DNA of 64,000 nt, taken from Telmatocola sphagniphila (GTDB lineage: Bacteria; Planctomycetota; Planctomycetia; Gemmatales; Gemmataceae). Every line of letters begins with the position of its first letter. Within the stretch, counting starts at the first letter, position 1. The notes beneath the pieces are model-generated. The model saw only the letters and a list, made by a program, of their open reading frames with translations. It was not told where the DNA came from and ran no database searches. Location of the stretch: contig NZ_CP074694.1 of the NCBI RefSeq assembly GCF_018398935.1, positions 1,208,846 through 1,272,845 of the forward strand, in the 5' to 3' direction. Position numbers and translations under genes: made by a program. This document shows, piece by piece, positions 11,730-26,035 of the stretch.

Positions 11730-13670
11730 TTGAAGGATTCCACAATGGGCTTGTTACTGTCTCAAATTGAATCTCCCGCGGACCTCAAGCGACTGTCGGA
11801 CGAACAACTCAATCAGTTGACGCAGGAAATTCGAGACGAGCTCGTGAGAATCATGAGCATTCGCCCCGCTCACTTCGCCAGCAATCTGGGCGTGGTCGAA
11901 CTCTGTCTGGCTTTGCATCTCACTTTCGATTTTTCCCGGGACCGCTTGATTTGGGACACAGGCCATCAGATTTACCCGCAGAAACTGATTACCGGCCGCT
12001 ATCGACAATTTAGTTCGATACGCACAAAAGGCGGTCTGATGGGATATCCCAATCCCAATGAGAGCATTTACGATCTATTCATGACCGGGCACGCCGGTAG
12101 CAGCGTCTCCACCGTTTCGGGGTTGAAAGCGGCCGATGATTTAATGGGTCAGAGCGAACGTAAAGCTGTGGCCGTGATCGGTGATGGCGCTTTCGTTTCC
12201 GGCGTGGTTTATGAGGCTATTAACAACATTTCCGGCATGGATCAGAATGTCCTGGTGATTCTCAACGACAACAAGATGTCGATATGTCCTCGTACCGGCG
12301 GTCTGGCCCGATATCTCGATAAAACCCGGATGACCGAATTCTACCAGGGATCCAAGAAGACCATTAGCAAAGTTCTGCACACCATTCCTTACATAGGCGA
12401 AAAAGCTCAGCATGCCCTGGAACATCTCCGCGATGGCATGAAAGGAGCAATTCTACGCGAGGGAATGCTGTTTGAAGAGATGGGTTTCCGCTATTTCGGC
12501 CCCGTCGATGGACACGACCTCAACAATCTACGAACGATCCTCGCGGATTTGAAAAATCAGAAGGGCCCGTTGCTGCTGCATGTGTTCACCAATAAAGGCG
12601 AGGGGGTTCCGGAAGCCAGTGCCGACCCCGTCAAGTTCCACACTCCCCCGGTGATCACGAAGCTCGGTCCAGAACGTACGGTCCTCGAGCTGAAAGCCGG
12701 GGGCGCGCGAGCTTACACCGATTCGATGAGTGATGCCATCCATCAGGCCATGGTTGCGGATGAAAAGGTGGCCATCCTCACGGCTGCAATGTGCCAGGGA
12801 AACAAACTGGAGAAGGTCCGCGAGAGTTTCCCCACCCGATTCTTCGATGTCGGAATCTGCGAATCGCATGCCGTCGCTTTCGCAGGCGGCATGGCCAAAG
12901 CAGGAATGAAGCCAATCGTGGATATCTACTCCACCTTCCTTCAGAGAGCTTTCGATCAGATCTTCCAGGAAGTGGCTCTTCAGAATCTCCCCGTTGTCTT
13001 CACCATGGATCGTGCGGGGCTTACCGGCCCAGACGGACCGACGCATCACGGCGTATTCGATATCCCTTACATGCGATTATTCCCGAATATGATCTGCATG
13101 GCCCCTGGGGATGAAACGGAAGTCGAGCCTATGCTGCAGTTTGCACTGCAGCAGAAGAGTCCCACTTCCATTCGATACCCCAAAACGAATCTGGAAAAGG
13201 TTGAGAGGCCCAAAGCTCCAATTCGACTGGGTAAAGCCGAGACCGTGCTGGAAGGCGTGGACGGGACTTTTGTGGCGTTTGGTGCCATCATGCCCTCCTG
13301 CTATCAGGCGGTTCTGAAACTGCGGGCCGAAGGAATGCAGATTGGTCTGATTAACGCCCGATTCGTGAAGCCGCTCGATTCGGAAACGATCCTGGGCGCT
13401 CTGAAGCACACGAAGTTCATACTCACAGTGGAAGAAGGCACTCTCGAGGGAGGTTTCGGGAGTGCTGTTTTGGAAGCCGCTAATCGAGCCAACTTGGATT
13501 CGCGAAAGATTATTCGGGTCGGCCTGCCAGATCGTTTCATCGATCATGCAGAGCGCCACGAACTCCTCGCGGAACTGGGCTTGGATGTCGAAGGGCTTTG
13601 TAAGTCGATGCGAAAGGCCAACGAGCAATTCACTGAATCCCACACCGAACTCACGGAATCGCTACGCTGA
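11730..13670 (+). CDS. dxs: 1-deoxy-D-xylulose-5-phosphate synthase
   Basis: 646 aa. N-terminal LLSQIESPADLKRL, TPP-binding GDGA...NDN motif, a transketolase-like middle domain, and a C-terminal domain. Confidence 0.95.
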   Translation: MKDSTMGLLLSQIESPADLKRLSDEQLNQLTQEIRDELVRIMSIRPAHFASNLGVVELCLALHLTFDFSRDRLIWDTGHQIYPQKLITGRYRQFSSIRTKGGLMGYPNPNESIYDLFMTGHAGSSVSTVSGLKAADDLMGQSERKAVAVIGDGAFVSGVVYEAINNISGMDQNVLVILNDNKMSICPRTGGLARYLDKTRMTEFYQGSKKTISKVLHTIPYIGEKAQHALEHLRDGMKGAILREGMLFEEMGFRYFGPVDGHDLNNLRTILADLKNQKGPLLLHVFTNKGEGVPEASADPVKFHTPPVITKLGPERTVLELKAGGARAYTDSMSDAIHQAMVADEKVAILTAAMCQGNKLEKVRESFPTRFFDVGICESHAVAFAGGMAKAGMKPIVDIYSTFLQRAFDQIFQEVALQNLPVVFTMDRAGLTGPDGPTHHGVFDIPYMRLFPNMICMAPGDETEVEPMLQFALQQKSPTSIRYPKTNLEKVERPKAPIRLGKAETVLEGVDGTFVAFGAIMPSCYQAVLKLRAEGMQIGLINARFVKPLDSETILGALKHTKFILTVEEGTLEGGFGSAVLEAANRANLDSRKIIRVGLPDRFIDHAERHELLAELGLDVEGLCKSMRKANEQFTESHTELTESLR

Positions 13671-13801
13671 GCACAAGTTGTTCCTATTCCGATTGACCAC
13701 CGATTGAGCTCCGATGATGGGCGACAGCAATTTGTTGCAGTATTTTAAGAGTCGGTGAAATTCTTGAATGTAAGCTTGTATATGCTGAATTTCTGAAAAA
13801 T

Positions 13802-14269
13802 TTGATGGGGATCCGAAAGGATTCTTGCTATACTGCGACGGAATTTGAGGATTCAGCAGAAGGATATTTCATGAGTACGACCGGCAATTCTGCAGAGCGG
13901 TATGCCAGCTCGGAAGACACGTTTCAGATCAAACGCTATGGTGATATTGCAATTATTATCCCTTCGTCCTCGATAGAAAGTTTACCCAGTAATCTGATCG
14001 AGCCCGCCGCGCAAATGGTTCTGGCTCCCCTTAAAGAAAATCCGCCCACTCATTTGATCGTCGATCTTTCCAATGTCAGCTACTTTGGCTCCGAATTTAT
14101 CACCTTCCTGCTTCGCTGCCATCTTCTGGTCAAGAAACGGGATAGTGAGTTGGTGCTGGCGGGATTGGGAGATCGGATTCGCGAATTGCTCCATCAAACT
14201 GCGCTGGATACGCTCTGGGCCATCTACGATGATCGGGCGACTGCGATTGCAGCGCTAAGCGGGGATTGA
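13802..14269 (+). CDS. STAS-domain protein (anti-sigma-factor antagonist-like). The start is probably the ATG at 13871.
   Basis: About 110 aa of STAS-like sequence (IVDLSNVSYFGSEFITFLL...ELVLAGLGDRIRELLHQTALDTLWAIYDDRATA). Confidence 0.6.
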   Translation: MMGIRKDSCYTATEFEDSAEGYFMSTTGNSAERYASSEDTFQIKRYGDIAIIIPSSSIESLPSNLIEPAAQMVLAPLKENPPTHLIVDLSNVSYFGSEFITFLLRCHLLVKKRDSELVLAGLGDRIRELLHQTALDTLWAIYDDRATAIAALSGD

Positions 14270-15414
14270 ACGTTGGCGTGAATATCTCCCAATTTCTCAG
14301 GCAAATCACGATTAGGGGAATTGAACCCTATTCTGATTATCCGCCTTCCCATTTCTTACGCGAGAAATCAATGGACTCTGAAAAGTCCGAAAATCCCGAA
14401 ATACCTCTGGAAATTCCGCCCTACGGCGGAAACCCGAAACGACGTCGGGATACTTCAAATTACTCGGTGGAAGATTTCGCCCGGGAAATCAAAGAAACGG
14501 CGGATAAACTCGTCAGCGATGGGGCTAACCGCGGAGACATCAAACTTATTTCGAGTGCACTGAAAGAACTTCGTTATTGCTTCAAGGTATTCAACAATTA
14601 CAAGGGTCGACCCAAGGTCACGATTTTCGGTTCCGCTCGAACTAAACCGCAGGAGAAACTTTATAAAGTTGCGGTCGATTTCGGCCGCGAGATTGTCAAA
14701 GCGGGCTACATGGTAATCACCGGAGCCGCCAGTGGCATTATGGAAGCCGGTCACGAAGGCGCGGAACGGGAAATGTCTATTGGCGTCAACATTCAGCTTC
14801 CTTTCGAGCAGTTTGCCAATCCGATCATACTCGGCGACCAGAAGCTGATGACCATGAAGTACTTCTTCACCCGAAAACTGATGTTCGTGAAAGAAACGGA
14901 TGCCGTGGTGTTATTCCCCGGGGGTTTTGGAACTCACGATGAAGGGTTTGAAGTTCTGACACTGATTCAAACGGGCAAAAGTCATATGTTCCCGGTTGTA
15001 TGTCTGGATGAACCGGGCGGGACCTACTGGAAATTATGGGATAATTTCATTCGCGAAGAATTGCTGGCGAAAAAAATGATTTCGCCCGCGGATCTTTCGC
15101 TGTACAGCGTTACAGATGACGTGAACGAGGCCGTTCGAGAAATTCAAACGTTTTACCGAGTGTACCATTCAATGAGATACGTTCGCGGTGAACTCGTTTT
15201 ACGCTTGAAACAATCGATATCTCCCTCCACCCTGGAAGATATTCGCGCGGAGTACGCCGATATCTGCCCTAGTGGCAATTTCGAGTTGACCAAGGCTTTG
15301 CCCGCTGAGGCCAATGAACCGGCCCTAGCCGATCTGCCGAGACTGAAATTCAAATTTGACCGCAGGGCTCACGGCCGGTTGCGCCAACTCATAAACCATA
15401 TAAATCGGGCTTGA
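14266..15414 (+). CDS. LOG family protein (TIGR00730 / cytokinin riboside 5'-monophosphate phosphoribohydrolase-like). An alternative ATG start is at 14371.
   Basis: VTIFGSARTKPQEKLYKVAVDFGREIVKAGYMVITGAASGIMEAGHEGA and PGGFGTHDEGFEVLTLIQTGK are hallmark LOG motifs. As drawn from 14266, the ORF overlaps the STAS ORF stop by 4 bp. Confidence 0.75.
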   Translation: MNVGVNISQFLRQITIRGIEPYSDYPPSHFLREKSMDSEKSENPEIPLEIPPYGGNPKRRRDTSNYSVEDFAREIKETADKLVSDGANRGDIKLISSALKELRYCFKVFNNYKGRPKVTIFGSARTKPQEKLYKVAVDFGREIVKAGYMVITGAASGIMEAGHEGAEREMSIGVNIQLPFEQFANPIILGDQKLMTMKYFFTRKLMFVKETDAVVLFPGGFGTHDEGFEVLTLIQTGKSHMFPVVCLDEPGGTYWKLWDNFIREELLAKKMISPADLSLYSVTDDVNEAVREIQTFYRVYHSMRYVRGELVLRLKQSISPSTLEDIRAEYADICPSGNFELTKALPAEANEPALADLPRLKFKFDRRAHGRLRQLINHINRA

Positions 15415-15502
15415 GTCTAACTTTCTGTTTCCTCTGTTCGTATTTTGAATAGTAAAATAAGTGTTTACGTAAATAATCGAATCTATTTCGCGGGAGCGTT
15501 CG

Positions 15503-16090
15503 ATGAAGCGGTTAACTGGTTTTCTGGTTCTCTTTCTCTGTTTCGGATCCTACGTATATGCCCAAGAGGCCAAATCGTCTCCTTTCTATCCTTTGAAGAA
15601 GGGGGCTTCCTGGACCTACAAGTCCAGTCAGGGTGGGGAAATTCTGGTGAAAGTCACTGGCACGGATAAAATCGGCGACAAAACGGGATGGAAGCTCGAA
15701 ACCACTGTGAACACAAAGTTGGCGGCCACCGAATTGATCGAGATTCGTGATGACGGATTCTATCGCTACTCCATCAATACCACGAAGGTGGACACGCCGG
15801 TGAAATTCTTCAAACTGCCTCCTGCCAAAGGCGACAGCTGGGATTTCGATTTCAAAGTTCAAAACCAGACCGTTAAAGGCAAATACGAGATTAAAGTGGA
15901 AGACGTGACCGTCAACGGGACACCCTATAAAGGGGCCTTTCTCGTTGAAGGCAAGGACATCACGATCGGCGATAAGAAAGCCGTTCTGAAGCAGTGGTTC
16001 GTGGAGAACGTTGGCATTGTCAAGATTCAGTTCTCCCTCGATGGCCAGGAAGGGATTCTGGAACTCGTAAAGCATGAACCCGGCAGCTGA
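15503..16090 (+). CDS. Secreted hypothetical protein
   Basis: 195 aa. Signal peptide MKRLTGFLVLFLCFGSYVYAQEA, then a beta-rich hydrophilic sequence. No family recognised. Confidence 0.55.
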   Translation: MKRLTGFLVLFLCFGSYVYAQEAKSSPFYPLKKGASWTYKSSQGGEILVKVTGTDKIGDKTGWKLETTVNTKLAATELIEIRDDGFYRYSINTTKVDTPVKFFKLPPAKGDSWDFDFKVQNQTVKGKYEIKVEDVTVNGTPYKGAFLVEGKDITIGDKKAVLKQWFVENVGIVKIQFSLDGQEGILELVKHEPGS

Positions 16091-18158: not shown

Positions 18159-18970
18159 TCTTCGCGACTTCCAACGCACTTCAGAGATCGGCATACGTTC
18201 GATTTCTGAAGCTTCCTTTTTGAAATTTCACGGCAGACCCAGCCAAGCTTTCAAAAATCGCGATTCAGCTTGAGAACGCCGATCAGGCTTCGGAAATTAC
18301 GCCTACGCAAAATATTCTTCTGCTAGAGCAATCAAATTTCGCGCAAGTTCCAACTCGATTCCTCTGAGAAAATAGTTTTCTTTTTTTAGAATCATTCCTT
18401 TGAAAGCCCAAATATACCGTTCTACAGAAAATTATGTCCAGAATTTGGATAAGGTGTAGCGAATGTAAGATCTGCTTATGCGAAAACTCGAACGATCGCA
18501 ACGCGAATGACAATGCGCTGACCGAATCGAGACTATCAATGTTTCGAACGGTAATAACTCGGACGAGTTTCTCCTATCACTCAAAGGCTGGTAGGAAATC
18601 ATCGGAAAAATTGCTGACTGGTATTGTCCCTTTTGGGATCGAACGCTCAGGCAAATCTCTTTCATGCCTTTTCGCGTATTGAGGGAGAAGTGTATTGAAT
18701 AGACAATTAGTATATATATTTCCGTTGTGTGATATTTAATTACAAACCAGTTGCATCGTTATTCGACAATCCATGTTGTTTTGAGGAATTGAAAAAAGTT
18801 TCGATTAGTTCACGCTCATTTAGATCGTGTAGAGCGTAAGAGATGGGTACAGGGAAGACTTCGCAGAATCTCTTTAACTGCGACAAATAGTGTTATGAGT
18901 ATTTTCAATCGGAACTCTATCGATTTGAATGTCATCATCAGGAAAGTGGGGCATCAAAAGTGAAACCGAA

Positions 18971-19171
18971 TCAGGCAGAGTTTTTTGACGCGTTTTTTCT
19001 TTGATACTTTTTCGGTTGATCCCATCGCGGACTCTTGCATTTGGGGCAGACGTGTGGCCGTGAATTTCCGTGAGGAACCCATTCGTGACCGCAGCGACAT
19101 CGGCAGCCATTCACTAGCACCATACCTATCGGCTTGCTGGAATCGGAGTCGGAACCGGATGTTTTAGTCAT
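18971..19171 (-). CDS. Small zinc-ribbon protein (FmdB-like), inside an AT-rich island. The start is possibly the internal ATG at 19123.
   Basis: MVLVNGCRCRCGHEW...HVCPKCKSPRW carries two Cys pairs (C-x-C-G-H-E-W and CP-x-C-K-S) resembling the FmdB zinc-ribbon pattern MxxYxYxCxxCGHxFE...CPxCGS. It is short and sits in a low-GC region, so this is a low-confidence call. Confidence 0.3.
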   Translation of the reverse strand: MTKTSGSDSDSSKPIGMVLVNGCRCRCGHEWVPHGNSRPHVCPKCKSPRWDQPKKYQRKNASKNSA

Positions 19172-19550
19172 GATCGTTTCTAGAGTAAATTTATATAGCT
19201 TTAAACACTATATGGTTGGTATATACTTAAAGTAAATAGTTAGAGTATATATATTAGTCAGTTTTTTAATATAATCAATTTGTTTTGCCGGGCGCGAATC
19301 ATTTTGCGTCTAATCTTAACAATTATTGATCGCATTTGATAATTTGGTGCTTGAACTAGATGCAACATCTTTGGTTATAGAATGAAAAATAGCATAGTAT
19401 CTTTTTTTCAAATTATTATCTCTCACTACTCAAAAGCCATTCTATTTTTAAATGTGAACGACTCGGACGACTTGAATTAGTTGAATTGCGGTTTTTCTAA
19501 TAGTCATTCCACCGATTAAATTCAGTGCTCATATTTCGGAGTGATTAGAC

Positions 19551-21152
19551 GTGTTTTCAGTTCGAATTGGCTTCCTGGCTGCGATCCCGTTACTGACCGC
19601 ACTGCTTTGGTTCGTGCTGCCAGCGGATTTGAGATCGGAGAAGGGGATCTTTCTGACTTCCGGTCTAGCATCCATACTCATTCTTGCGTGCGGGCTCTTT
19701 TTGACCCGAACCGTAGAAACCTTTCGAACCTGGGTACAGAACGACGTTCTGAATGTTCCTGAAAAGAAAAGAGACCCGTTATTCGGTCCAGCGAAACTCC
19801 GTTACTTGGATTTAGTCCGAGATCGGGACCAGGCTTTGCAGGAGCGCCAGGTTGTTCTTGATGCTGTGGATTCCCATCTGATAGCCTTGAACCTTTTGAT
19901 GGGGGTGAAACAAAGCGCTGCACGAGGTCTGGATTCGCTGCCTGGGAGCTTGACCGAACTTCGTAACTTGCTTCAGACCCTGCGTTCCCGAATGCAGGTA
20001 AATCAGTCGCTGCTCCAGGGAATTCCCGTTCCAGTAGTCGTAACCGATGATCAAGGGCGGCTTTTATCGATGAACCAGCTGGGCGAAAAGTGTCTGGCAC
20101 TCAATCCCGGAAACATGGCCGCACGCAATATCGATGAATTCCTTGTGATGCCGAACGGAAAAGCGTCGGCTTTGGCTCGTTCGGAGGTACATACGGATCT
20201 TGCAGAACTTTCTCTTTCGGGTCAGAAGAAACCGATTCGGTTTTTCCACGGCAAAGTGCCCCACCCCGAGCGTAAAAATTTGTCGTGCTGGGTGATCACC
20301 GATCGTTCTCAGGAATTGGCCGAAAAAGATTCGATGGTTTCTAATGCGGCCAAGGAAGCCCGGCTTAGCACTCTTCAGCAGTTGATCCGAGATAACCTGG
20401 TGGCTGAACTTCCTCTGGCCGAGACACTTCAAGCGAAATGTCGATTAGCGCTCGGGGAAGTCAAACAGTCGGCTGATAAGAGCCAGTTGATTTCGCGGAT
20501 CGGCGGAATCCGGCAGGACCTGGATCAGTGGATGGGCCGTTTGCGACTCTGGGAGTCGCTCTATCGAGTCGAGTGGACGGAGTTGGATAGTCTTGATTTG
20601 AACGAAATCACCGCGGAGGAGGTTCTTCAGGATTCCATTCGTTCGCTTTCCAGCCTTACTAGCGCTAAACGAGTTACGATTCAAGTAGCGAATAAAGGCG
20701 CTGGTTGGCTCTGTGCCGACAGCTCCGGATTGTTCAACGCGCTTCGCGGCCTGCTTGAGTTTGCCATTCGGGCCAGCAGTGGTGAACGCGTGGAAGTGCG
20801 GGTAGATAAGCTTCCCGGGACTGCAGAATTGTCCGAGGGTTGGGTGGTTTATGAAGTTTTGGGAGAGTGGAAGAAAGATTGGCTGCCAGCCATTGCGGAT
20901 GGGGAATTCGATTGGGAATCGTTGCTAGTGGAGCAACCGGGAAGGGAAGCCTTACTCGGCTATCTGGTGGCAGCTAGAGTTTCCCGCACACTGAATGGCT
21001 TCCTACGAGCGGAGGAGTCCCCAGACGGCCGGAGAATTTTCGGTCTGTATGTCCCGACCCGACTGCCCGAGCAGAAAGTGGTGCAAGCAGGCTTGGAAAT
21101 CGGCCCGATCGAGGAGCTCTGTTTGGGTTGGAAGTTAGGTATGGCTGTTTGA
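19551..21152 (+). CDS. Membrane sensor protein: 2 TM, a PAS-like domain, and a degenerate histidine-kinase-like ATPase domain
   Basis: 533 aa with a GTG start. Two N-terminal TM helices. PAS-like stretch PVVVTDDQGRLLSMNQLGEKCLALNPGN.... C-terminal GHKL-like N-box (SSGLFNALRGLLEFAIRAS) with no recognisable H-box. Confidence 0.5.
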   Translation: MFSVRIGFLAAIPLLTALLWFVLPADLRSEKGIFLTSGLASILILACGLFLTRTVETFRTWVQNDVLNVPEKKRDPLFGPAKLRYLDLVRDRDQALQERQVVLDAVDSHLIALNLLMGVKQSAARGLDSLPGSLTELRNLLQTLRSRMQVNQSLLQGIPVPVVVTDDQGRLLSMNQLGEKCLALNPGNMAARNIDEFLVMPNGKASALARSEVHTDLAELSLSGQKKPIRFFHGKVPHPERKNLSCWVITDRSQELAEKDSMVSNAAKEARLSTLQQLIRDNLVAELPLAETLQAKCRLALGEVKQSADKSQLISRIGGIRQDLDQWMGRLRLWESLYRVEWTELDSLDLNEITAEEVLQDSIRSLSSLTSAKRVTIQVANKGAGWLCADSSGLFNALRGLLEFAIRASSGERVEVRVDKLPGTAELSEGWVVYEVLGEWKKDWLPAIADGEFDWESLLVEQPGREALLGYLVAARVSRTLNGFLRAEESPDGRRIFGLYVPTRLPEQKVVQAGLEIGPIEELCLGWKLGMAV

Positions 21153-21245: not shown

Positions 21246-22766
21246 ATGAAAAGAATTAAATTGCAGCCGCTGGGTGAAGATTTGGTCATGCAGACCGGCA
21301 CCACGGTGCTCTCTACTCTGTTAGCTAAGCAACTCAACGTCAAAATGTCCTGCGGTGGGCGCGGCCTTTGCGCGACCTGTCGCGTGACCGTGGAGAAGGG
21401 GGGCGATAGTCTCTCCCCCATGGAAAACCGCGAAAAGAAAACGCTGTCGCTCGTACAGGGCAGTACGCCTTCCTGCCGGCTGGCCTGTCAATCCCGAATT
21501 TACGGTGACGGCGTCGTCGTGCAGTTACCCAAGGGTATGTACATCGAAAAGGCGGAAGACCTTCTGAGCTTGTTGGGCACTCGCGCTCCCGAGAATATAC
21601 TCCACCCGATCTTCGGTAACGTGCTTATCCCCAAAGACAAAATCATCACTCGTACGCTTTTCGAACAAACCAAACTTCTTGAAAAAGAAGTCGAAAGAGT
21701 CCGAAATGCAAAAACGGGCGGGGGCGATTCCGAAAGTCAGCTGAACTCCTCGACGATTGGCAACGGCCGATTCCTGGCCACCGGTTCGGGTATTGCTCCC
21801 GCCTCGATGCAGGATACATTCTCTTCGACGGTGCTGCGGGCAACCAGTATCAACCCGATCAAAACCAAACCGAGTTATCTCAGCCCGAATATCCCACTCC
21901 CTCCGTCGACTAATCCGCGCAAGTTGGAACCAGGAGTTCAGATCGGCAAATTCCTTCTGATCGAGCAGATCGGGCGCGGAGCATCCGGTCTGGTTTTCCG
22001 AGCTTCCAACTTGAAATTGAAGTCCATGGTGGCATTGAAGTTTCTGCATCCGGATGCCCAGCACGATCGCGAAGCCCGCATCGAGAGATTTCGCAATGAA
22101 GCTCATTTGCTGGCCCAGATCAATCACCCCAACATCGTGCGCGTGCTCGACTTTGAAGATAATCCGATCCTGCCATTCGTGGTGATGGAATACGTTGAAG
22201 GATTGAGCGGCTTGGATCTGCTGAAACAAAATCGGGTTTTACCCGTGGACCGCGCATCGAATATCGTTCTACAAGCGGCCAAGGGGTTGCAGGCGGCTCA
22301 CAAGCTGGGGATCATCCATCGCGACGTCAAACCCGGGAACCTGTTAGTTTCACGGGACGATACTACACGCATCCTGGATTTAGGGCTGGCATTGAAAATT
22401 GAAGGGGATGGCGAGAACCCTTCTGCCTCAGGCGAAGGTACCGCGGCCTACATGCCGCCCGAACAGCTCATAGATGGTTCCCAGATCGATCATCGATCCG
22501 ATATCTACTCCCTGGGAGTGACCTTCTATCATCTGATCACAGGTAAGTTGCCTTATACCGCTGCCAGCCGCAAAGAGATGTTTATGGAACATATGAGTTC
22601 CAATCCTCCGAAACCGTCCAAGGTCCGGCCGGAGATCCCCAACGATTTGTCCAACTTTATTCTGGAAATGATGCACATGGATTTGGAAAATCGGCCCCAA
22701 TCCTACGATTCGGTCATTGAACGACTGACCGAATACGCCACGGATAATCAGTTGGTGACAGCCTGA
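21246..22766 (+). CDS. Fusion protein: N-terminal adrenodoxin-type [2Fe-2S] ferredoxin domain plus C-terminal Hanks-type Ser/Thr protein kinase
   Basis: N-terminus MSCGGRGLCATC...(35 aa)...CRLAC is a C-x5-C-x2-C-x35-C ferredoxin pattern. Kinase motifs: GRGASGLVF, VALKFL, HRDVKPGNLLV, DLGLA, GTAAYMPPEQ. Confidence 0.8.
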   Translation: MKRIKLQPLGEDLVMQTGTTVLSTLLAKQLNVKMSCGGRGLCATCRVTVEKGGDSLSPMENREKKTLSLVQGSTPSCRLACQSRIYGDGVVVQLPKGMYIEKAEDLLSLLGTRAPENILHPIFGNVLIPKDKIITRTLFEQTKLLEKEVERVRNAKTGGGDSESQLNSSTIGNGRFLATGSGIAPASMQDTFSSTVLRATSINPIKTKPSYLSPNIPLPPSTNPRKLEPGVQIGKFLLIEQIGRGASGLVFRASNLKLKSMVALKFLHPDAQHDREARIERFRNEAHLLAQINHPNIVRVLDFEDNPILPFVVMEYVEGLSGLDLLKQNRVLPVDRASNIVLQAAKGLQAAHKLGIIHRDVKPGNLLVSRDDTTRILDLGLALKIEGDGENPSASGEGTAAYMPPEQLIDGSQIDHRSDIYSLGVTFYHLITGKLPYTAASRKEMFMEHMSSNPPKPSKVRPEIPNDLSNFILEMMHMDLENRPQSYDSVIERLTEYATDNQLVTA

Positions 22767-22772
22767 ACCGAA

Positions 22773-23942
22773 CTAACGCTTGCCCAGCGATCGAATATCG
22801 AAATCCGCATCGTTCAGATGATTGCAGCGAAAATTCGAGAAGAGCATCGACTCGGCGTTTCGGCCGCCATTTTCCACGATGATGATTACGACCGGCAGAT
22901 TTAAGCTGGGGCTGCCTTCATCAACATCGAAATAGTACTGTCGCTTGCCTCCCTTGGGCAATTCCTTATCCCCGGGGGGCACATGTTCTTCAATCAGGCG
23001 TAATGGCCCTTTGTGATCGTTTCGTTCGGTCATCCCCTTGTCGTGCAGTCTCGAAGCGAATGTCTGCTGATTCCACAAGGAGAGCAAATGACGCACGACG
23101 TACCCTGGTCCCGCATCCCGAATATCGTGTTTGGAGCGACTCTTGAGAGTCGGATCGTCCGGAGGCATGCTCACTTGTTGAGGGCCTAATAAGGGAATGT
23201 CTCCCTTGGCCGTCAGCATTTGAATTTTGCCTTCGTATTTATTGGACACATACAGGATGTCGCGACCTTGAAACTGCTCGCCAATCCAGGTCATGTGAAC
23301 GGAATATGGGCTTTGCTTATGGCGAAAGCGAACGACCTCGGTCGGTTGCTGGACGCCCTCCTTGATATCTCGCATGATCATCTTCGATTCGAGAGTATCG
23401 ATCGACTTCAACCGATGGGAGGCGCTCGTCAGAAGAGTACCGATGTCGTTGACCGCGGGCTCAGTAGCACGAGGCAAATCGACGGAGCTGGCTCGTGCAA
23501 TCGGCTTGGTTTCGAGACTATCGTTATTGCTTTGAGGACCCAGTTTGGGAACTTGGGGAGTTGTTGGTGCGGGATCCTGCAGGGTCGGCAATATCGGAGC
23601 CGGGCTAGATGTCGCCGGGGCCGGGCTTGATGCCGTGGGAACTGCCGGGGATGTCAGGCCAGGAGTGGTATCTGCAGGTGTGTTGAGGGGTTTCGGTAAG
23701 GGAGGAAGATTCTTATTAGCAGTTGGCGTTGTAGCCGCATTTGCATTCGCCTGAGGGGGTGTCGCCGTTGGATCGGGTGCTTTCCGAGGATCCGGCAACG
23801 GTTTGTAGGTATCCAAAGGCGTGGCGGGTGTCGAACTGATCGCGCTTCGTTTCGGAGAGGAAAAGCATCCGATAGGGAAAACGATTGTCGTTAAAACGAA
23901 GGTGAAGCAGATCCAGCGAGCCAGTCGATTTTTGCCATGCAT
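22773..23942 (-). CDS. Hypothetical exported (lipoprotein-like) protein with a Pro/Thr/Ala-rich low-complexity linker
   Basis: N-terminal hydrophobic segment ending in ...FPIGCFSS, which could be a lipobox. About 120 aa of P/T/A-rich repeats (TPPQANANAATTPTANKNLPPLPKPLNTPADTTPGL...). Globular C-terminal domain. Confidence 0.5.
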   Translation of the reverse strand: MHGKNRLARWICFTFVLTTIVFPIGCFSSPKRSAISSTPATPLDTYKPLPDPRKAPDPTATPPQANANAATTPTANKNLPPLPKPLNTPADTTPGLTSPAVPTASSPAPATSSPAPILPTLQDPAPTTPQVPKLGPQSNNDSLETKPIARASSVDLPRATEPAVNDIGTLLTSASHRLKSIDTLESKMIMRDIKEGVQQPTEVVRFRHKQSPYSVHMTWIGEQFQGRDILYVSNKYEGKIQMLTAKGDIPLLGPQQVSMPPDDPTLKSRSKHDIRDAGPGYVVRHLLSLWNQQTFASRLHDKGMTERNDHKGPLRLIEEHVPPGDKELPKGGKRQYYFDVDEGSPSLNLPVVIIIVENGGRNAESMLFSNFRCNHLNDADFDIRSLGKR

Positions 23943-24083: not shown

Positions 24084-24752
24084 CTACTCGAGTTCTTCCG
24101 CTCGAATTCGGCCGAGTTGTTCCGTTGCTAATTTAGGGCCTTTGGGAGAACCAAAAATCGCTGTGCCCGCGACCAGAACATCGGCTCCGTGTCGAACGCA
24201 CACCGGTGCGGTTTGAAGATCGACGCCCCCATCCACTTCGAGTTCACAGCGAGGATTCAGTTTTTCGATGAGCTCTCGGAGTTTCTGGATTCGCTCCGGA
24301 CTTTCCGGCAGGAATGACTGTCCTCCAAAACCCGGCCACACGGTCATGCACAGCGCCAGATCAATATCGGTGATGTAATCCTTCAGGACATCAACGGAAG
24401 TCCCGGGATTGATCGCCAGACCCACTTTTCGACCTCGGCCGCGGATCTCTTGGATCAGCGGCAGAGGATCCGAGACAACTTCAAAGTGGACGATTAAAGT
24501 ATCTGCGCCGGCTTGTAGAAAGGAATCCACGAATCGGGAAGGATTATCGACCATCAGATGCACTTCCAGTGGAAGCTTGGTGATCGGGCGCAGCCCTTTC
24601 ACTACCACCGGACCCATACTCAGATTCGGAACGAAGTGGCCATCCATGACGTCGACGTGAATTCGGTTTGCTCCTCCCAGGTCGACCTGATGAACGAGTT
24701 CACCCAACTTGGAAAAATCAGCCGCCAAGATGGATGGAGCAATGGAAATCAT
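24084..24752 (-). CDS. rpe: Ribulose-phosphate 3-epimerase
   Basis: MISIAPSILAADFSKLGE...HVDVMDGHFVPNLSMGP is the canonical Rpe sequence. Confidence 0.9.
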   Translation of the reverse strand: MISIAPSILAADFSKLGELVHQVDLGGANRIHVDVMDGHFVPNLSMGPVVVKGLRPITKLPLEVHLMVDNPSRFVDSFLQAGADTLIVHFEVVSDPLPLIQEIRGRGRKVGLAINPGTSVDVLKDYITDIDLALCMTVWPGFGGQSFLPESPERIQKLRELIEKLNPRCELEVDGGVDLQTAPVCVRHGADVLVAGTAIFGSPKGPKLATEQLGRIRAEELE

Positions 24753-26035
24753 ACCGTAACCTCAACAACTTCGGGGGGCACCGTTTGTTTTACAGGATGA
24801 GGCGTTACGGCACTACGCAAAATCCGAACGAGGCCGATACTCAGCATGGCCACACCAGCAGACATAAATCCCACGGTGCCGTAGCCAATCAGTTCTTTCG
24901 TTGGGCCATCCGTTATGAATTGTCCGGAAACTACCGAGGCCAGACCCATTGTCATATGCTGCACGGCGGAATTCAAGCTCATGAAGGCCCCCCGTTCGTG
25001 CGGTTTAGCTACTCCGGTAATCAGCGCCTGGGCTGGCACCATTCGACCCGAAGTGAAGATCATGAAACAAGTGGTCACCAGGAAGATGGTGAACATGCCG
25101 ACTTCGGGAAGATGAGTCAGAATCAGGCTCATGATGGCCGCACAAACTGCTACGACATAGAAGACTTGCTTCTTACCGATTTTGTCGGAGAGCCGGCCAA
25201 TGATATTCGTAGTAAACAGGGTGCAGCATCCCGCGATCAGATAGACGTACTTCACCTGTTCTGGCGGCCGTTTGACGTTGTTCACCATGTAATCTGCGAG
25301 GAAAGGAATCACCAAAAATCCGCCCCCCACCACGGTAGCGCTAAACAGAAACGCTAGAAGGTAGTATTTGTTGCAGATCACATGACCGAACTGAATGAAC
25401 GGATCAATTTTACCGGGAATGATATGGCCGCGCAGACTAGGAAACTTGACCATAACCAGGCAAGTCAAGAGTAGCACCAGGACAGCCAGGGTGAGGAAAG
25501 GCGCCCCCATCCCAAATTCTTCCGATAGTTTGAGTCCAGTCGGGATGCCAATTACCGAAGCTGCGGCAAATCCCGACATAATAATCCCCATTGCGGTACC
25601 ACGCCTGGCATCGGCAAATAAGTCCCCGATGATTGTCATGACACATGAACCAAGTACTCCGCCGAAAGCCCCAGCGGCAATTCGTGAGGCCAGCATTCGG
25701 CTATAGGTATCGGATAATCCGCACGCGGCGGTGCTTAGACTGAAGCCGAGCAAAAGTGTTACTAGAACAGCTTTTCGATCAAATCGGTCGATGATCGAGG
25801 CCGAAAGTATCGCCGCGATCGCAGCCGATACTCCGTACGCGGCTACCAGTTGGCTAAATTCCCCGGAGAGAATGTCAAACCGGACTTTGATCGTGGGAGC
25901 GAGAGGAATCATCAACACGAAGTCGATGATGTTCGCAAACTGAATTCCGGCCAATATTAAGAGAATTAGCCACTCGCCGCGGCTAAATTTAATCGACTTT
26001 GAAGACTGCATGAAGTGCCCAACGCTTTTTTTCAA
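24749..26035 (-). CDS. MFS transporter
   Basis: 428 aa with about 12 predicted TM helices and MFS-like loop motifs. Overlaps the rpe start by 4 bp. Confidence 0.8.
   Translation of the reverse strand: MKKSVGHFMQSSKSIKFSRGEWLILLILAGIQFANIIDFVLMIPLAPTIKVRFDILSGEFSQLVAAYGVSAAIAAILSASIIDRFDRKAVLVTLLLGFSLSTAACGLSDTYSRMLASRIAAGAFGGVLGSCVMTIIGDLFADARRGTAMGIIMSGFAAASVIGIPTGLKLSEEFGMGAPFLTLAVLVLLLTCLVMVKFPSLRGHIIPGKIDPFIQFGHVICNKYYLLAFLFSATVVGGGFLVIPFLADYMVNNVKRPPEQVKYVYLIAGCCTLFTTNIIGRLSDKIGKKQVFYVVAVCAAIMSLILTHLPEVGMFTIFLVTTCFMIFTSGRMVPAQALITGVAKPHERGAFMSLNSAVQHMTMGLASVVSGQFITDGPTKELIGYGTVGFMSAGVAMLSIGLVRILRSAVTPHPVKQTVPPEVVEVTV

What the first reader, a model, noticed from the sequence alone, without database searches (positions are those of the whole stretch)
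21246..22766. Adrenodoxin-type [2Fe-2S] ferredoxin domain fused to a Hanks-type Ser/Thr kinase
The N-terminal ~100 aa carry the C-x5-C-x2-C-x35-C ligand pattern of vertebrate-type/adrenodoxin ferredoxins. A ~130-aa Ser/Pro-rich linker follows, then a complete eukaryotic-like kinase domain (VALK, HRD, DLG, PPE). An Fe-S cluster fused directly to a protein kinase suggests a redox, oxygen or iron-sensing kinase. I do not recognise this architecture as a described family.
Basis: partly seen in the sequence, partly recalled or inferred. Interest (0 to 1): 0.6.

Follow-up and report, generated by a model that had tools for sequence, protein, structure and literature searches.

The report
Fed5-type ferredoxin fused to kinase
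This Telmatocola gene really does join an iron-sulfur ferredoxin to a eukaryote-like protein kinase; the ferredoxin is the kind that sits beside such kinases in bacterial bilin-pigment gene clusters, so the fusion suggests the ferredoxin is a signalling part and not only an electron carrier.

Summary
ORF 21246-22766 (+) encodes a 506-aa protein, 100% identical to a Telmatocola sphagniphila (Gemmataceae) protein annotated only as "protein kinase". It has an adrenodoxin/ISC-type [2Fe-2S] ferredoxin fold and a PknB-like Hanks kinase with every catalytic residue. The ligands C36, C42, C45 and C81 are invariant in 44 fused homologues.

Two corrections apply. The conserved N-module is about 158 aa: a ferredoxin core plus a conserved 60-aa extension. 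The disordered linker is only about 65 aa.

The N-module belongs to the Fed5 (Slr0148) family, the "Fe-S protein" of the pre-PcyA/BBAG clusters (heme oxygenase, two V4R proteins, phycobiliprotein-like globins). In other Gemmataceae the fused kinase closes such a cluster. One relative carries the same module on a PP2C phosphatase. A Hanks kinase lies within 6 kb of Fed5-like ferredoxins in 29 of 39 well-flanked loci. In Synechocystis, Fed5 phosphorylation depends on the operon's kinase SpkG.

Telmatocola keeps only a membrane PAS/pseudo-histidine-kinase gene plus the fusion; the bilin genes are absent from the window and probably from the genome.

Best reading: the ferredoxin is a redox-responsive input, and possibly a cis-substrate, of Ser/Thr signalling. 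This is inferred, not shown. I found no paper describing the fusion. I rate it a new variant of a known kind.

The parts
21246..21539 (+). Ferredoxin core (aa 1-98). It has the beta-grasp adrenodoxin/ISC-type [2Fe-2S] fold. The ligands are C36, C42, C45 and C81.
   Evidence: Pfam Fer2 scores 32.8 bits. The PDB profile search hits 1i7h at 2.7e-17. Foldseek gives 1i7h at rmsd 1.3 A and TM-score 0.79 relative to the target. The four Cys are invariant in 44 fused homologues and 35 stand-alone homologues.
21540..21719 (+). Conserved 60-aa C-terminal extension of the ferredoxin module (aa 99-158). Its hallmarks are the motif MYIEKAEDLLSLLGTRAPENILHP and the invariant residues D105, G111, H120, P121, K132, T135 and R136. 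This extension is the signature of the Fed5-like family. Its function is unknown.
   Evidence: It aligns end to end with stand-alone 155-160-aa ferredoxins. It has no PDB sequence match. It is modelled as a short helix, short strands and a long helix (aa 136-157), with pLDDT 73-86. It is 67% identical to P0051, more conserved than the kinase domain at 56%.
21720..21920 (+). Disordered Ser/Thr/Pro-rich linker (aa 159-225). It varies in length and sequence among homologues. It is a candidate region for autophosphorylation.
   Evidence: pLDDT is 29-37 over aa 159-222. Identity to homologues other than the closest one is 3-19%.
21921..22766 (+). PknB-like Hanks-type Ser/Thr kinase domain (aa 226-506 plus the stop codon). 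I call this lineage 'PKa'.
   Evidence: Pfam Pkinase scores 175 bits. The residues G243, G245, G248, K265, E285, H358, R359, D360, K362, N365, D378, G380, P405, D419 and R483 are invariant. The nearest PDB entry is M. tuberculosis PknB at 4e-42. It is 45% identical to the stand-alone PKa of the unfused cluster L002 and 29-32% identical to the SpkG-type PKb.
19551..21152 (+). Upstream partner gene 'UP' (533 aa). It consists of N-terminal hydrophobic, putative transmembrane segments (judged by eye; no TM prediction was run), a weak PAS domain, a DHp-like helix with no conserved His, and a degenerate HATPase_c. It ends in a conserved C-terminal tail EELCxGW(K/R)LG. It is probably co-transcribed with the fusion gene.
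   Evidence: The PAS match is weak. Homologues occupy the 5' end of the Gemmataceae clusters that end with the fused gene: L001, L004, L005, L011, L032, L048, L085 and L087. The alignment shows no conserved His and a missing N-box Asn. A 93-bp spacer separates it from the fusion gene and no terminator-like site lies between them.

Best explanation
What it is (well supported). The gene encodes a Fed5-family [2Fe-2S] ferredoxin module joined by a ~65-aa disordered linker to an active PknB-like Hanks kinase. The module comprises an adrenodoxin-type core plus a family-specific 60-aa extension.

The family arose in Gemmatales inside the pre-PcyA/BBAG bilin cluster. That cluster holds heme oxygenase, a Fe-S protein, two V4R proteins and phycobiliprotein-like globins. 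It often has a bacteriophytochrome beside it and sometimes an FDBR. One copy of the cluster's ferredoxin became fused to one of the cluster's two kinases.

In Telmatocola the genes that lie between UP and the fusion in relatives are missing: V4R-A, V4R-B, two globins and heme oxygenase, plus a stand-alone ferredoxin in most. What remains is a two-gene unit: the membrane PAS/pseudo-histidine-kinase 'UP' followed by the ferredoxin-kinase.

How it most likely works (inferred):
1. The ferredoxin module holds a redox-active [2Fe-2S] cluster.
2. It serves as the input domain of Ser/Thr phospho-signalling.
3. Its redox state or cluster occupancy changes how the module and its extension contact the kinase. 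Occupancy would reflect electron supply, O2/ROS or iron.
4. That change sets kinase activity, with autophosphorylation of the module or linker as a likely step.
5. The signal goes to partner proteins, of which the co-transcribed UP protein is the prime candidate.

In cluster-bearing relatives this would couple bilin synthesis or sensing to the redox state. In Telmatocola the module would work as a free-standing redox-responsive kinase.
For: Identity of the protein:
- Pfam Fer2 and Pkinase both match.
- PDB profile and fold matches are to ISC ferredoxin, putidaredoxin and adrenodoxin.
- Ligand Cys and kinase catalytic residues are invariant in 42-44 homologues.
- The model shows two confident domains and a disordered linker.

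Fed5 family and cluster origin:
- The first 160 aa match stand-alone 155-160-aa ferredoxins end to end.
- Those ferredoxins sit in V4R-BBAG-V4R-Fer2-BBAG-Fer2-TPR-Pkinase operons that match Synechocystis slr0144-slr0152 gene for gene (PMC4284462).
- Fused genes close UP-Fer2-V4RA-V4RB-BBAG-BBAG-HO clusters in L001, L004, L005 and L048; Zavarzinella L085 has the same cluster without the stand-alone Fer2.
- L086 adds a phytochrome and Fe_bilin_red.
- This is the cluster defined in PMC10151467.

Signalling role:
- A Hanks kinase lies within 6 kb of the Fed5-like ferredoxin in 29 of 39 loci that have at least 5 kb on both sides. That is as frequent as V4R, at 31 of 39.
- The same module, at 55% identity with its Cys intact, is fused to a PP2C phosphatase at the same position in a homologous cluster, L087. 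Recurrent fusion to opposing Ser/Thr-signalling enzymes is typical of an input domain.
- In Synechocystis, Fed5 phosphorylation disappears in a spkG mutant (PMC11863333, PMC10651672).

Independent function in Telmatocola:
- No HO, V4R or BBAG is found in the 64-kb window.
- No Telmatocola V4R-A appears among the best 120 of 475 hits, although other Gemmatales genomes do.
- Yet the ferredoxin core (70% identity) and the extension (67%) are more conserved against the closest homologue than the kinase domain (56%).
Against: - No biochemical fact about this protein exists. Cluster binding, redox potential and kinase regulation are all inferred.
- The AlphaFold full-length model gives no confident interdomain packing (pTM 0.57), so there is no structural hint of how the ferredoxin would control the kinase.
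- In Zavarzinella (L085) the fused ferredoxin is the only ferredoxin of the cluster and sits just after heme oxygenase. That fits an electron-donor role at least as well as a sensor role.
- The absence of the bilin cluster from the rest of the Telmatocola genome rests on a truncated hit list, not on a genome search.
- Telmatocola and its closest homologue have replaced the otherwise near-invariant His46 and Ser77 by Arg and Cys. The module may therefore behave differently from the rest of the family.
Confidence: 0.55

Rival explanations
1. Tethered substrate / gated electron donor. The ferredoxin domain is still a working electron carrier for heme oxygenase (and an FDBR where present). The kinase is fused to it in order to phosphorylate it in cis, as SpkG is thought to do to Fed5 in trans. 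Phosphorylation would switch electron delivery, and hence bilin synthesis, on or off. The information would flow from kinase to ferredoxin, not from ferredoxin to kinase.
For: - The fused gene lies immediately downstream of heme oxygenase in L001, L004, L005, L048, L085 and L006.
- Zavarzinella L085 has no other ferredoxin in the cluster.
- In unfused clusters the order is PKa-HO-Fer2 (L002, L007, L009).
- Fed5 phosphorylation depends on SpkG (PMC11863333).
- Thr17 (39 of 42), Thr66 and Thr135 (both invariant) are conserved hydroxyl residues in the module.
Against: - Telmatocola has no heme oxygenase or bilin genes near the gene and probably none at all. Even so, the ferredoxin module is the best-conserved part of the protein.
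- Most Gemmata-type clusters keep a second, stand-alone ferredoxin that could serve as the donor.
- The fusion of the same module to a PP2C phosphatase is compatible with substrate tethering, but it is equally expected for an input domain.
Confidence: 0.27
2. Docking module only. The ferredoxin-plus-extension module is a protein-protein adaptor that brings the kinase (or PP2C) to partner proteins such as V4R proteins, BBAG globins or the UP protein. The cluster would be merely structural, with no redox signal involved.
For: - The family-specific 60-aa extension has no known catalytic or cofactor role and is strongly conserved.
- The module recurs on different enzymes and on a WD40 propeller protein, P0301, in which the third Cys is Gly.
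Against: - All four ligand Cys are invariant in every kinase and PP2C fusion examined.
- The core keeps the complete adrenodoxin-type cluster loop.
- P0301 is a single sequence that may contain errors.
Confidence: 0.12
3. Artefact. The ORF is two neighbouring genes (a ferredoxin and a kinase) merged by a sequencing or assembly error, or it is a decaying pseudogene left after the cluster was lost.
For: - Unfused ferredoxin and kinase genes are neighbours in related clusters.
- Telmatocola has lost the rest of the cluster.
Against: - At least 44 homologous proteins from independent genomes and metagenomes have the same continuous architecture.
- About 14 of the top 17 representatives at 50% identity are such fusions.
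- The reading frame is open through a linker that varies in length among homologues.
- All catalytic and ligand residues are intact.
- The public protein record is identical to the window's translation.
Confidence: 0.01

Closest known systems
Fed5 (Slr0148) and SpkG (Slr0152) of the Synechocystis slr0144-slr0152 operon
   Same: The ferredoxin family is the same: an adrenodoxin-like [2Fe-2S] core plus a ~60-aa extension, 42-48% identical over about 150 aa to cyanobacterial orthologues. Orthology is supported by nine-gene synteny in L074. A Hanks kinase belongs to the same operon, and Fed5 phosphorylation depends on it (PMC11863333, PMC10651672, PMC4284462).
   Different: Here the ferredoxin and kinase form one polypeptide. 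The fused kinase belongs to a different lineage: PKa, 29-32% identical to SpkG-type PKb, and without the C-terminal propeller-like region. The organism is a non-photosynthetic planctomycete. The V4R, globin, Fed4 and TPR genes are absent from the window.
Fe-S protein of the pre-PcyA / BBAG bilin-biosynthesis clusters (Rockwell, Martin & Lagarias 2023, PMC10151467)
   Same: Homologues of the fused protein and of its N-module lie in clusters with heme oxygenase, V4R clades A and B, BBAG globins and, in L086, an Fe_bilin_red FDBR.
   Different: That paper treats the Fe-S protein as a stand-alone core gene. It set aside the kinase-containing neighbours (slr0150-slr0152) for lack of evidence of conservation. 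It mentions no kinase other than in a reference title. The kinase fusion, the PP2C fusion and the 29/39 kinase linkage are not part of that description.
Mycobacterial PknG (rubredoxin domain + Hanks kinase + TPR)
   Same: It is a Hanks-type kinase carrying an N-terminal iron-binding, Cys-ligated domain that is held to modulate kinase activity (PMC8546545, PMC4401782; mechanism from general knowledge).
   Different: PknG has a mononuclear Fe(Cys)4 rubredoxin packed onto the kinase lobe. Here the metal domain is a [2Fe-2S] beta-grasp ferredoxin on a flexible ~65-aa linker, with no rubredoxin or TPR match. The two are not homologous in the sensor part.
ISC ferredoxin (Fdx), putidaredoxin, adrenodoxin
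   Same: The fold and ligand spacing are the same. The best structural match is E. coli Fdx 1i7h (rmsd 1.3 A, 30% identity).
   Different: The score is below the NCBIfam fdx_isc equivalog cut-off (52 against 132 bits). The protein has an extra 60-aa extension. It is not in an isc or P450 context. Telmatocola has Arg in place of the CxxCH histidine.

Membership tests
Adrenodoxin/ISC-type (vertebrate-type) [2Fe-2S] ferredoxin, Pfam Fer2 PF00111 | Sequence match above the curated threshold | tested here: met
   Fer2 scores 32.8 bits against a cut-off of 21, aa 10-85. The profile of the family hits 1i7h at 2.7e-17 and also hits putidaredoxin and adrenodoxin.
Adrenodoxin/ISC-type (vertebrate-type) [2Fe-2S] ferredoxin, Pfam Fer2 PF00111 | C-x5-C-x2-C-x35-37-C ligand pattern, conserved in homologues | tested here: met
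   C36, C42, C45 and C81 are present. They are invariant in 44 fused and 35 stand-alone homologues.
Adrenodoxin/ISC-type (vertebrate-type) [2Fe-2S] ferredoxin, Pfam Fer2 PF00111 | Beta-grasp ferredoxin fold | tested here: met
   The AlphaFold model has pLDDT 82. Foldseek gives 1i7h_A at E 3.5e-09, rmsd 1.3 A and TM-score (target-normalised) 0.79.
Adrenodoxin/ISC-type (vertebrate-type) [2Fe-2S] ferredoxin, Pfam Fer2 PF00111 | Actually binds a redox-active [2Fe-2S] cluster | not testable with these tools
   This needs anaerobic expression and UV-vis/EPR.
ISC-system ferredoxin Fdx (NCBIfam TIGR02007 equivalog) | Score above the equivalog cut-off | tested here: not met
   The score is 52.4 bits against a cut-off of 132.1. 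It is not an ISC Fdx orthologue.
Fed5 / pre-PcyA-cluster Fe-S protein family | Ferredoxin core plus the conserved ~60-aa C-terminal extension, homologous end to end | tested here: met
   Identity to stand-alone 150-172-aa members is 41-60% over 77-99% of the 160-aa query. Invariant residues G111, H120, P121, G124 and K132 are shared by both groups.
Fed5 / pre-PcyA-cluster Fe-S protein family | Encoded with V4R-A, V4R-B and BBAG globins (with or without HO and FDBR) | tested here: not met
   The feature is met for homologues. It is not met in this window: tblastn finds no HO, V4R or BBAG in 64 kb, and no Telmatocola V4R-A is among the best 120 hits.
Fed5 / pre-PcyA-cluster Fe-S protein family | Stand-alone small protein (~155-160 aa) | tested here: not met
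   Here the module is the N-terminal part of a 506-aa kinase. I therefore file it as a fused variant derived from the family, not as a plain member.
Hanks-type (eukaryote-like) Ser/Thr protein kinase, Pfam Pkinase PF00069 | Domain match above threshold and all catalytic motifs present (Gly loop, VAIK Lys, alphaC Glu, HRD, N, DFG/DLG, APE/PPE) | tested here: met
   The score is 175.3 bits against a cut-off of 31.7. G243, G245, G248, K265, E285, H358-D360, N365, D378, G380 and P405 are invariant, and E406 is conserved in at least 90% of the 42 sequences. The nearest PDB entry is PknB at 4e-42.
Hanks-type (eukaryote-like) Ser/Thr protein kinase, Pfam Pkinase PF00069 | Phosphotransfer activity | not testable with these tools
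   This needs an in vitro autophosphorylation or substrate assay.
SpkG orthologue (cluster kinase 'PKb') | Kinase domain closest to the SpkG-type kinases that end cyanobacterial slr0144-0152-like operons, with their long C-terminal region | tested here: not met
   Identity to PKb (L2_PK661, L3_PK629) is 29-32%, against 45-47% to PKa kinases. There is no C-terminal region beyond the kinase domain.
PknG-like rubredoxin kinase | Rubredoxin CxxCG pairs N-terminal to the kinase and a TPR domain C-terminal to it | tested here: not met
   Pfam gives no rubredoxin or TPR match at E up to 1. The Cys pattern is that of a ferredoxin.
Stk1/PknB PASTA kinase (NCBIfam NF033483) | Score above the equivalog cut-off, with PASTA repeats | tested here: not met
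   The score is 251 bits against a cut-off of 450. The match is confined to the kinase domain, aa 235-501.

The most novel reading that the evidence does not exclude
The Fed5-type ferredoxin module would be a dedicated [2Fe-2S] input domain for bacterial Ser/Thr phospho-signalling. It would be used in cis on Hanks kinases and PP2C phosphatases in Gemmatales, and in trans with SpkG-type kinases in cyanobacteria and other phyla.

If so, the widespread HO/V4R/BBAG ('pre-PcyA', slr0144-0152) clusters are at heart redox- and bilin-linked signalling systems rather than pigment-synthesis or photosystem-assembly operons. The Telmatocola protein would then be the minimal, cluster-free form of a new class of iron-sulfur sensor kinase.
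Probability: 0.35. Interest if true: 0.75.

Novelty: new variant of a known kind. Interest (0 to 1): 0.6.

Why it matters
Three reasons make this worth a follow-up.

1. Iron-sulfur or iron-Cys control of eukaryote-like kinases is known essentially only from PknG's rubredoxin. A [2Fe-2S] ferredoxin input would be a different solution, and one that can be tested.

2. The role of the Fe-S, V4R and globin genes is an open question. These genes are shared by the bacterial pre-PcyA clusters and the cyanobacterial slr0144-slr0152 operon. They have been linked both to the origin of phycobiliproteins and to photosystem assembly. The published analysis deliberately left the kinases out. The kinase fusion, the PP2C fusion and the 74% kinase linkage found here act as a 'Rosetta stone'. 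They say that ferredoxin and Ser/Thr phosphorylation belong together, and they give genetic and biochemical handles for testing this.

3. Telmatocola is cultured and has a complete genome. It offers the simplest version of the system, with two genes and no bilin machinery.

Tried and rejected
1. Deletion by recombination between the stand-alone and the fused ferredoxin copies, which would leave a chimeric ferredoxin. The Telmatocola module resembles the fused/HO-adjacent type along its whole length, with no switch point. The idea is not supported.

2. The 533-aa protein next to the Oscillatoria kinase as a homologue of the 533-aa upstream ORF. There is no similarity; the equal length is a coincidence.

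3. A search for HO, V4R, BBAG or phytochrome in the window. None was found.

4. An Rfam scan of 17.5-24.5 kb at E up to 0.1 found nothing. The promoter and terminator scan was no better than shuffled sequence.

5. Reading Angeleri et al. 2018 (FEBS Lett 592:411) for the Fed5 phosphosites. The paper is not held, so I make no claim about which residues are phosphorylated.

6. A Foldseek search against AFDB50. The library was unavailable.

7. Literature searches for the Fer2-Pkinase fusion. No relevant paper turned up.

8. The full-length AlphaFold model as a guide to interdomain contacts. Its pTM is 0.57 and the linker is disordered, so it is uninformative.
Full report
**1. The observation**

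The ORF at 21246-22766 (+) is real and 506 aa long. It starts at an ATG preceded by an AAGGA Shine-Dalgarno-like element. Its translation is 100% identical over the full length to a protein of Telmatocola sphagniphila, annotated only as "protein kinase", on a 6.59 Mb contig. Telmatocola belongs to the Planctomycetota, order Gemmatales, family Gemmataceae.

Cys residues lie at 36, 42, 45, 77 and 81. This gives C-x5-C-x2-C-x35-C with C81 inside the adrenodoxin-like motif (S/C)RLACQ.

Pfam finds Fer2 (aa 10-85, 32.8 bits, cut-off 21) and Pkinase (aa 239-485, 175 bits, cut-off 31.7). NCBIfam's best ferredoxin model is the ISC ferredoxin TIGR02007. At 52 bits it is far below the equivalog cut-off of 132.

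**2.

- In 44 homologues with the same architecture the four ligands sit at identical positions (C36, C42, C45, C81). C77 is Ser in 40 of 42 aligned sequences.
- A profile of the N-module hits E. coli ISC ferredoxin 1i7h (2.7e-17), FdxB, putidaredoxin and adrenodoxin.
- An AlphaFold model of aa 1-165 has mean pLDDT 82. It superposes on 1i7h with rmsd 1.3 A over 100 columns.
- The kinase has every catalytic residue invariant across the family: the Gly loop, K265, E285, HRD 358-360, N365, D378-x-G380 and P405. Its nearest solved relative is M. tuberculosis PknB at 4e-42.

**3. Correction of the anatomy**

The first 160 aa match a family of stand-alone ferredoxins of 150-172 aa end to end, at 41-60% identity over 77-99% of the query. 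Residues 99-158 are not linker. They are a conserved extension with the motif MYIEKAEDLLSLLGTRAPENILHP and the invariant residues D105, G111, H120, P121, K132, T135 and R136.

The extension has no PDB sequence match. It is modelled with moderate confidence as a short helix, short strands and a long helix. Only aa 159-222 is disordered (pLDDT ~30), and that stretch is barely conserved.

**4. What the N-module is**

Contigs carrying homologues gave the key. L001 reads:

PAS protein - Fer2 (155 aa) - V4R - unknown - V4R-like - two phycobilisome-like globins - heme oxygenase - Fer2::Pkinase.

L002 reads:

Pkinase - heme oxygenase - Fer2 (157 aa) - V4R - unknown - globin - V4R - Pkinase.

This is the pre-PcyA/BBAG cluster of Rockwell, Martin and Lagarias (PMC10151467). 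It holds heme oxygenase, an Fe-S protein, V4R clades A and B, and bilin-biosynthesis-associated globins. Its cyanobacterial descendant is Synechocystis slr0144-slr0149.

In Synechocystis, slr0148 is Fed5, the only "adrenodoxin-like" ferredoxin of that organism (PMC4284462). The last gene of the operon, slr0152, is the Hanks kinase SpkG. Fed5 phosphorylation is lost in a spkG mutant (PMC11863333; PMC10651672).

I could not fetch Slr0148 itself. However, locus L074 (Hydrococcus rivularis) reproduces the nine-gene operon: V4R, hypothetical, globin, V4R, Fer2 of 160 aa, globin, Fer2 of 104 aa, TPR, Pkinase of 611 aa. By synteny, the 160-aa ferredoxins are Fed5 orthologues and the terminal kinase ("PKb") is SpkG.

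**5. Comparative survey**

A scan of one genome per species gave 80 loci with this ferredoxin. I classified their neighbours by tblastn.

| Group | Loci | Gene order |
|---|---|---|
| Gemmataceae, canonical | L001, L004, L005, L048; partial L011, L032 | (kinase) - UP - Fer2 - V4RA - V4RB - BBAG - BBAG - HO - Fer2::PKa |
| Zavarzinella | L085 | Same order, without the stand-alone Fer2 |
| Metagenomic contig | L086 | Bacteriophytochrome - Fer2::PK - HO - Fer2 - V4R - unknown ORF - BBAG - V4R - PKb - two ParA-like genes - Fe_bilin_red |
| Unfused | L002, L007, L009 | PKa - HO - Fer2 - V4RA - ... - PKb |

Further points:
- L005 and L048 have a bacteriophytochrome immediately downstream of the fused gene.
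- The fused kinase domain is 45-47% identical to the stand-alone PKa but only 29-32% identical to PKb/SpkG-type kinases.
- Among 39 loci with at least 5 kb on both sides, 29 have a Hanks kinase within 6 kb of the ferredoxin. V4R is present in 31.

The kinase is thus about as faithful a neighbour as the "core" genes. The 2023 paper had set the kinase-containing neighbours aside for lack of evidence of conservation.

**6. Size and breadth of the fused family**

The word-indexed search lists about 44 clusters at 90% identity with Fer2 plus Pkinase. Named sources are Telmatocola, Gemmata, Zavarzinella, Thermogemmata, Fimbriiglobus and Gemmataceae MAGs.

The exhaustive search of 1.84 billion representatives at 50% identity finds 20 proteins at E up to 1e-30. 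Most of the best 17 are kinase fusions.

Three further results came from that search:
- More divergent ferredoxin-kinase fusions exist: P0296, P0311 and P0316.
- One protein, P0292 (637 aa), carries the same module fused to a PP2C phosphatase. The module is 55% identical over aa 1-155 and its Cys ligands are intact.
- The contig of P0292 (L087) is a Gemmata-type cluster with the phosphatase where the kinase normally sits: Pkinase - UP - Fer2 - V4R - small ORF - V4R - BBAG - BBAG - HO - Fer2::PP2C.

**7. The Telmatocola locus**

tblastn with HO, both V4R clades, BBAGs and phytochrome finds nothing in the 64-kb window. Only the upstream ORF (UP, 19551-21152) and the fusion gene are shared with the clusters. 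The arrangement equals the Zavarzinella cluster minus its five internal genes.

A profile search with V4R-A returned 475 hits. The best 120 reach down to 51% identity. They include Frigoriglobus, Tuwongella, Isosphaera and Zavarzinella, but no Telmatocola. The bilin cluster is therefore probably absent from the genome. The caveat is that this is a truncated list, not a genome search.

The ferredoxin module is nevertheless under strong constraint. Against the closest homologue P0051, identities are 70% (core), 67% (extension), 42% (linker) and 56% (kinase).

Telmatocola and P0051 alone share two substitutions, H46R and S77C, at positions that are His and Ser in the other 40 sequences. From memory, these positions correspond to the His56-Ser88 hydrogen-bonded pair of bovine adrenodoxin, which links the cluster loop to the interaction domain. 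That correspondence is a recollection, not a tested result.

**8. The upstream gene**

UP homologues start the Gemmataceae clusters. Their parts are N-terminal hydrophobic (putative transmembrane, not predicted with a tool) segments, a weak PAS domain, a DHp-like helix with a conserved K-Q-(S/T) where the phospho-His would be, and a HATPase_c-like domain lacking the N-box Asn. They end in a conserved C-terminal tail EELCxGW(K/R)LG.

UP looks like a pseudo-histidine kinase. It is separated from the fusion gene by 93 bp, with no terminator-like site between them. It is the obvious candidate partner or substrate of the kinase.

**9. Mechanism**

Shown:
- The fold of the N-module.
- The conservation of the Cys ligands.
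- An intact kinase.
- Family membership of the module.
- The cluster context of homologues.
- The recurrent physical and genetic linkage of this ferredoxin to Ser/Thr kinases and to a phosphatase.

Inferred: that the module binds a redox-active cluster and that its state controls the kinase.

I favour the input-domain reading (confidence 0.55) for two reasons. The same module is fused to opposing signalling enzymes. It is also retained under strong constraint in a genome that seems to have lost all its presumed electron acceptors.

The main rival (0.27) is that the ferredoxin remains an electron donor to heme oxygenase and is the kinase's cis-substrate. This fits the HO-adjacent position, the Zavarzinella cluster without another ferredoxin, and the SpkG-Fed5 precedent. 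The two readings are not mutually exclusive. A pure docking role (0.12) and an artefact (0.01) are less likely.

**10. Novelty**

Each domain is a member of a known family, and the ferredoxin-kinase partnership has a genetic precedent. The covalent fusion, its PP2C counterpart and the strength of the kinase linkage are not described in any paper I could find. Database names are only "protein kinase" or JGI's automatic "ferredoxin / Bud32".

I rate it a new variant of a known kind, with interest 0.6.

Noticed in passing
L087:9374-11287 (protein P0292): The same Fed5-type ferredoxin module is fused to a PP2C phosphatase instead of a kinase. It sits at the same end position of an otherwise identical UP-Fer2-V4R-V4R-BBAG-BBAG-HO cluster, which has a separate 399-aa kinase upstream.
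   Followed up: partly
window 19551-21152 (+), and homologues in L001, L004, L005, L011, L032, L048, L085, L087: The upstream 'UP' protein family looks like a membrane-anchored PAS/pseudo-histidine kinase. It has no conserved phospho-acceptor His (K-Q-S/T instead) and lacks the N-box Asn. It ends in a conserved C-terminal motif EELCxGW(K/R)LG of unknown meaning.
   Followed up: partly
window 21381-21383 (R46) and 21474-21476 (C77): Telmatocola and its closest homologue P0051 alone carry H46R together with S77C. The other 40 aligned fusions have His and Ser. The pair may correspond to adrenodoxin His56-Ser88 (from memory), so the change could be a compensated alteration of the redox-transmission contact.
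   Followed up: partly
window 18200-19550: This is a 1.4-kb AT-rich stretch (about 43% GC against ~51% elsewhere) with no ORF of 100 aa or more. Its only plausible gene is a 66-aa zinc-ribbon-like ORF (CxC...CPKC) at 18971-19171 (-). There is no Rfam match. In Gemmata-type clusters a kinase gene occupies the position upstream of UP.
   Followed up: partly
L005:11774-15919, L048:~11915-15850, L086:6002-9877: Bacteriophytochrome-type sensor kinases lie directly beside the fused ferredoxin-kinase in three clusters. They have PAS_2-GAF-PHY domains and, in L005 and L048, a conserved Cys before the EPIH motif. This links the system to biliverdin-based light sensing. None is present in the window.
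   Followed up: partly
L004-L083 (80 loci from the genome scan): A Hanks kinase lies within 6 kb of the Fed5-like ferredoxin in 29 of 39 well-flanked loci, as often as V4R (31 of 39). A second recurrent cyanobacterial arrangement is GvpL/F-like - 533-aa unknown - PKb, divergent from the ferredoxin (for example L003, L033, L069, L070).
   Followed up: partly
protein P0301 (758 aa): A Fed5-like module is followed by a WD40 beta-propeller. The third ligand Cys reads Gly (CATGH), so this may be a degenerate module or a sequence error.
   Followed up: no
window 22773-23942 (-), 24084-24752 (-), 24749-26035 (-): The downstream neighbours are on the opposite strand and look unrelated to the system. 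They are a DUF1571 protein with a long Pro/Thr/Ala-rich N-terminal region, ribulose-phosphate 3-epimerase, and an MFS transporter.
   Followed up: yes
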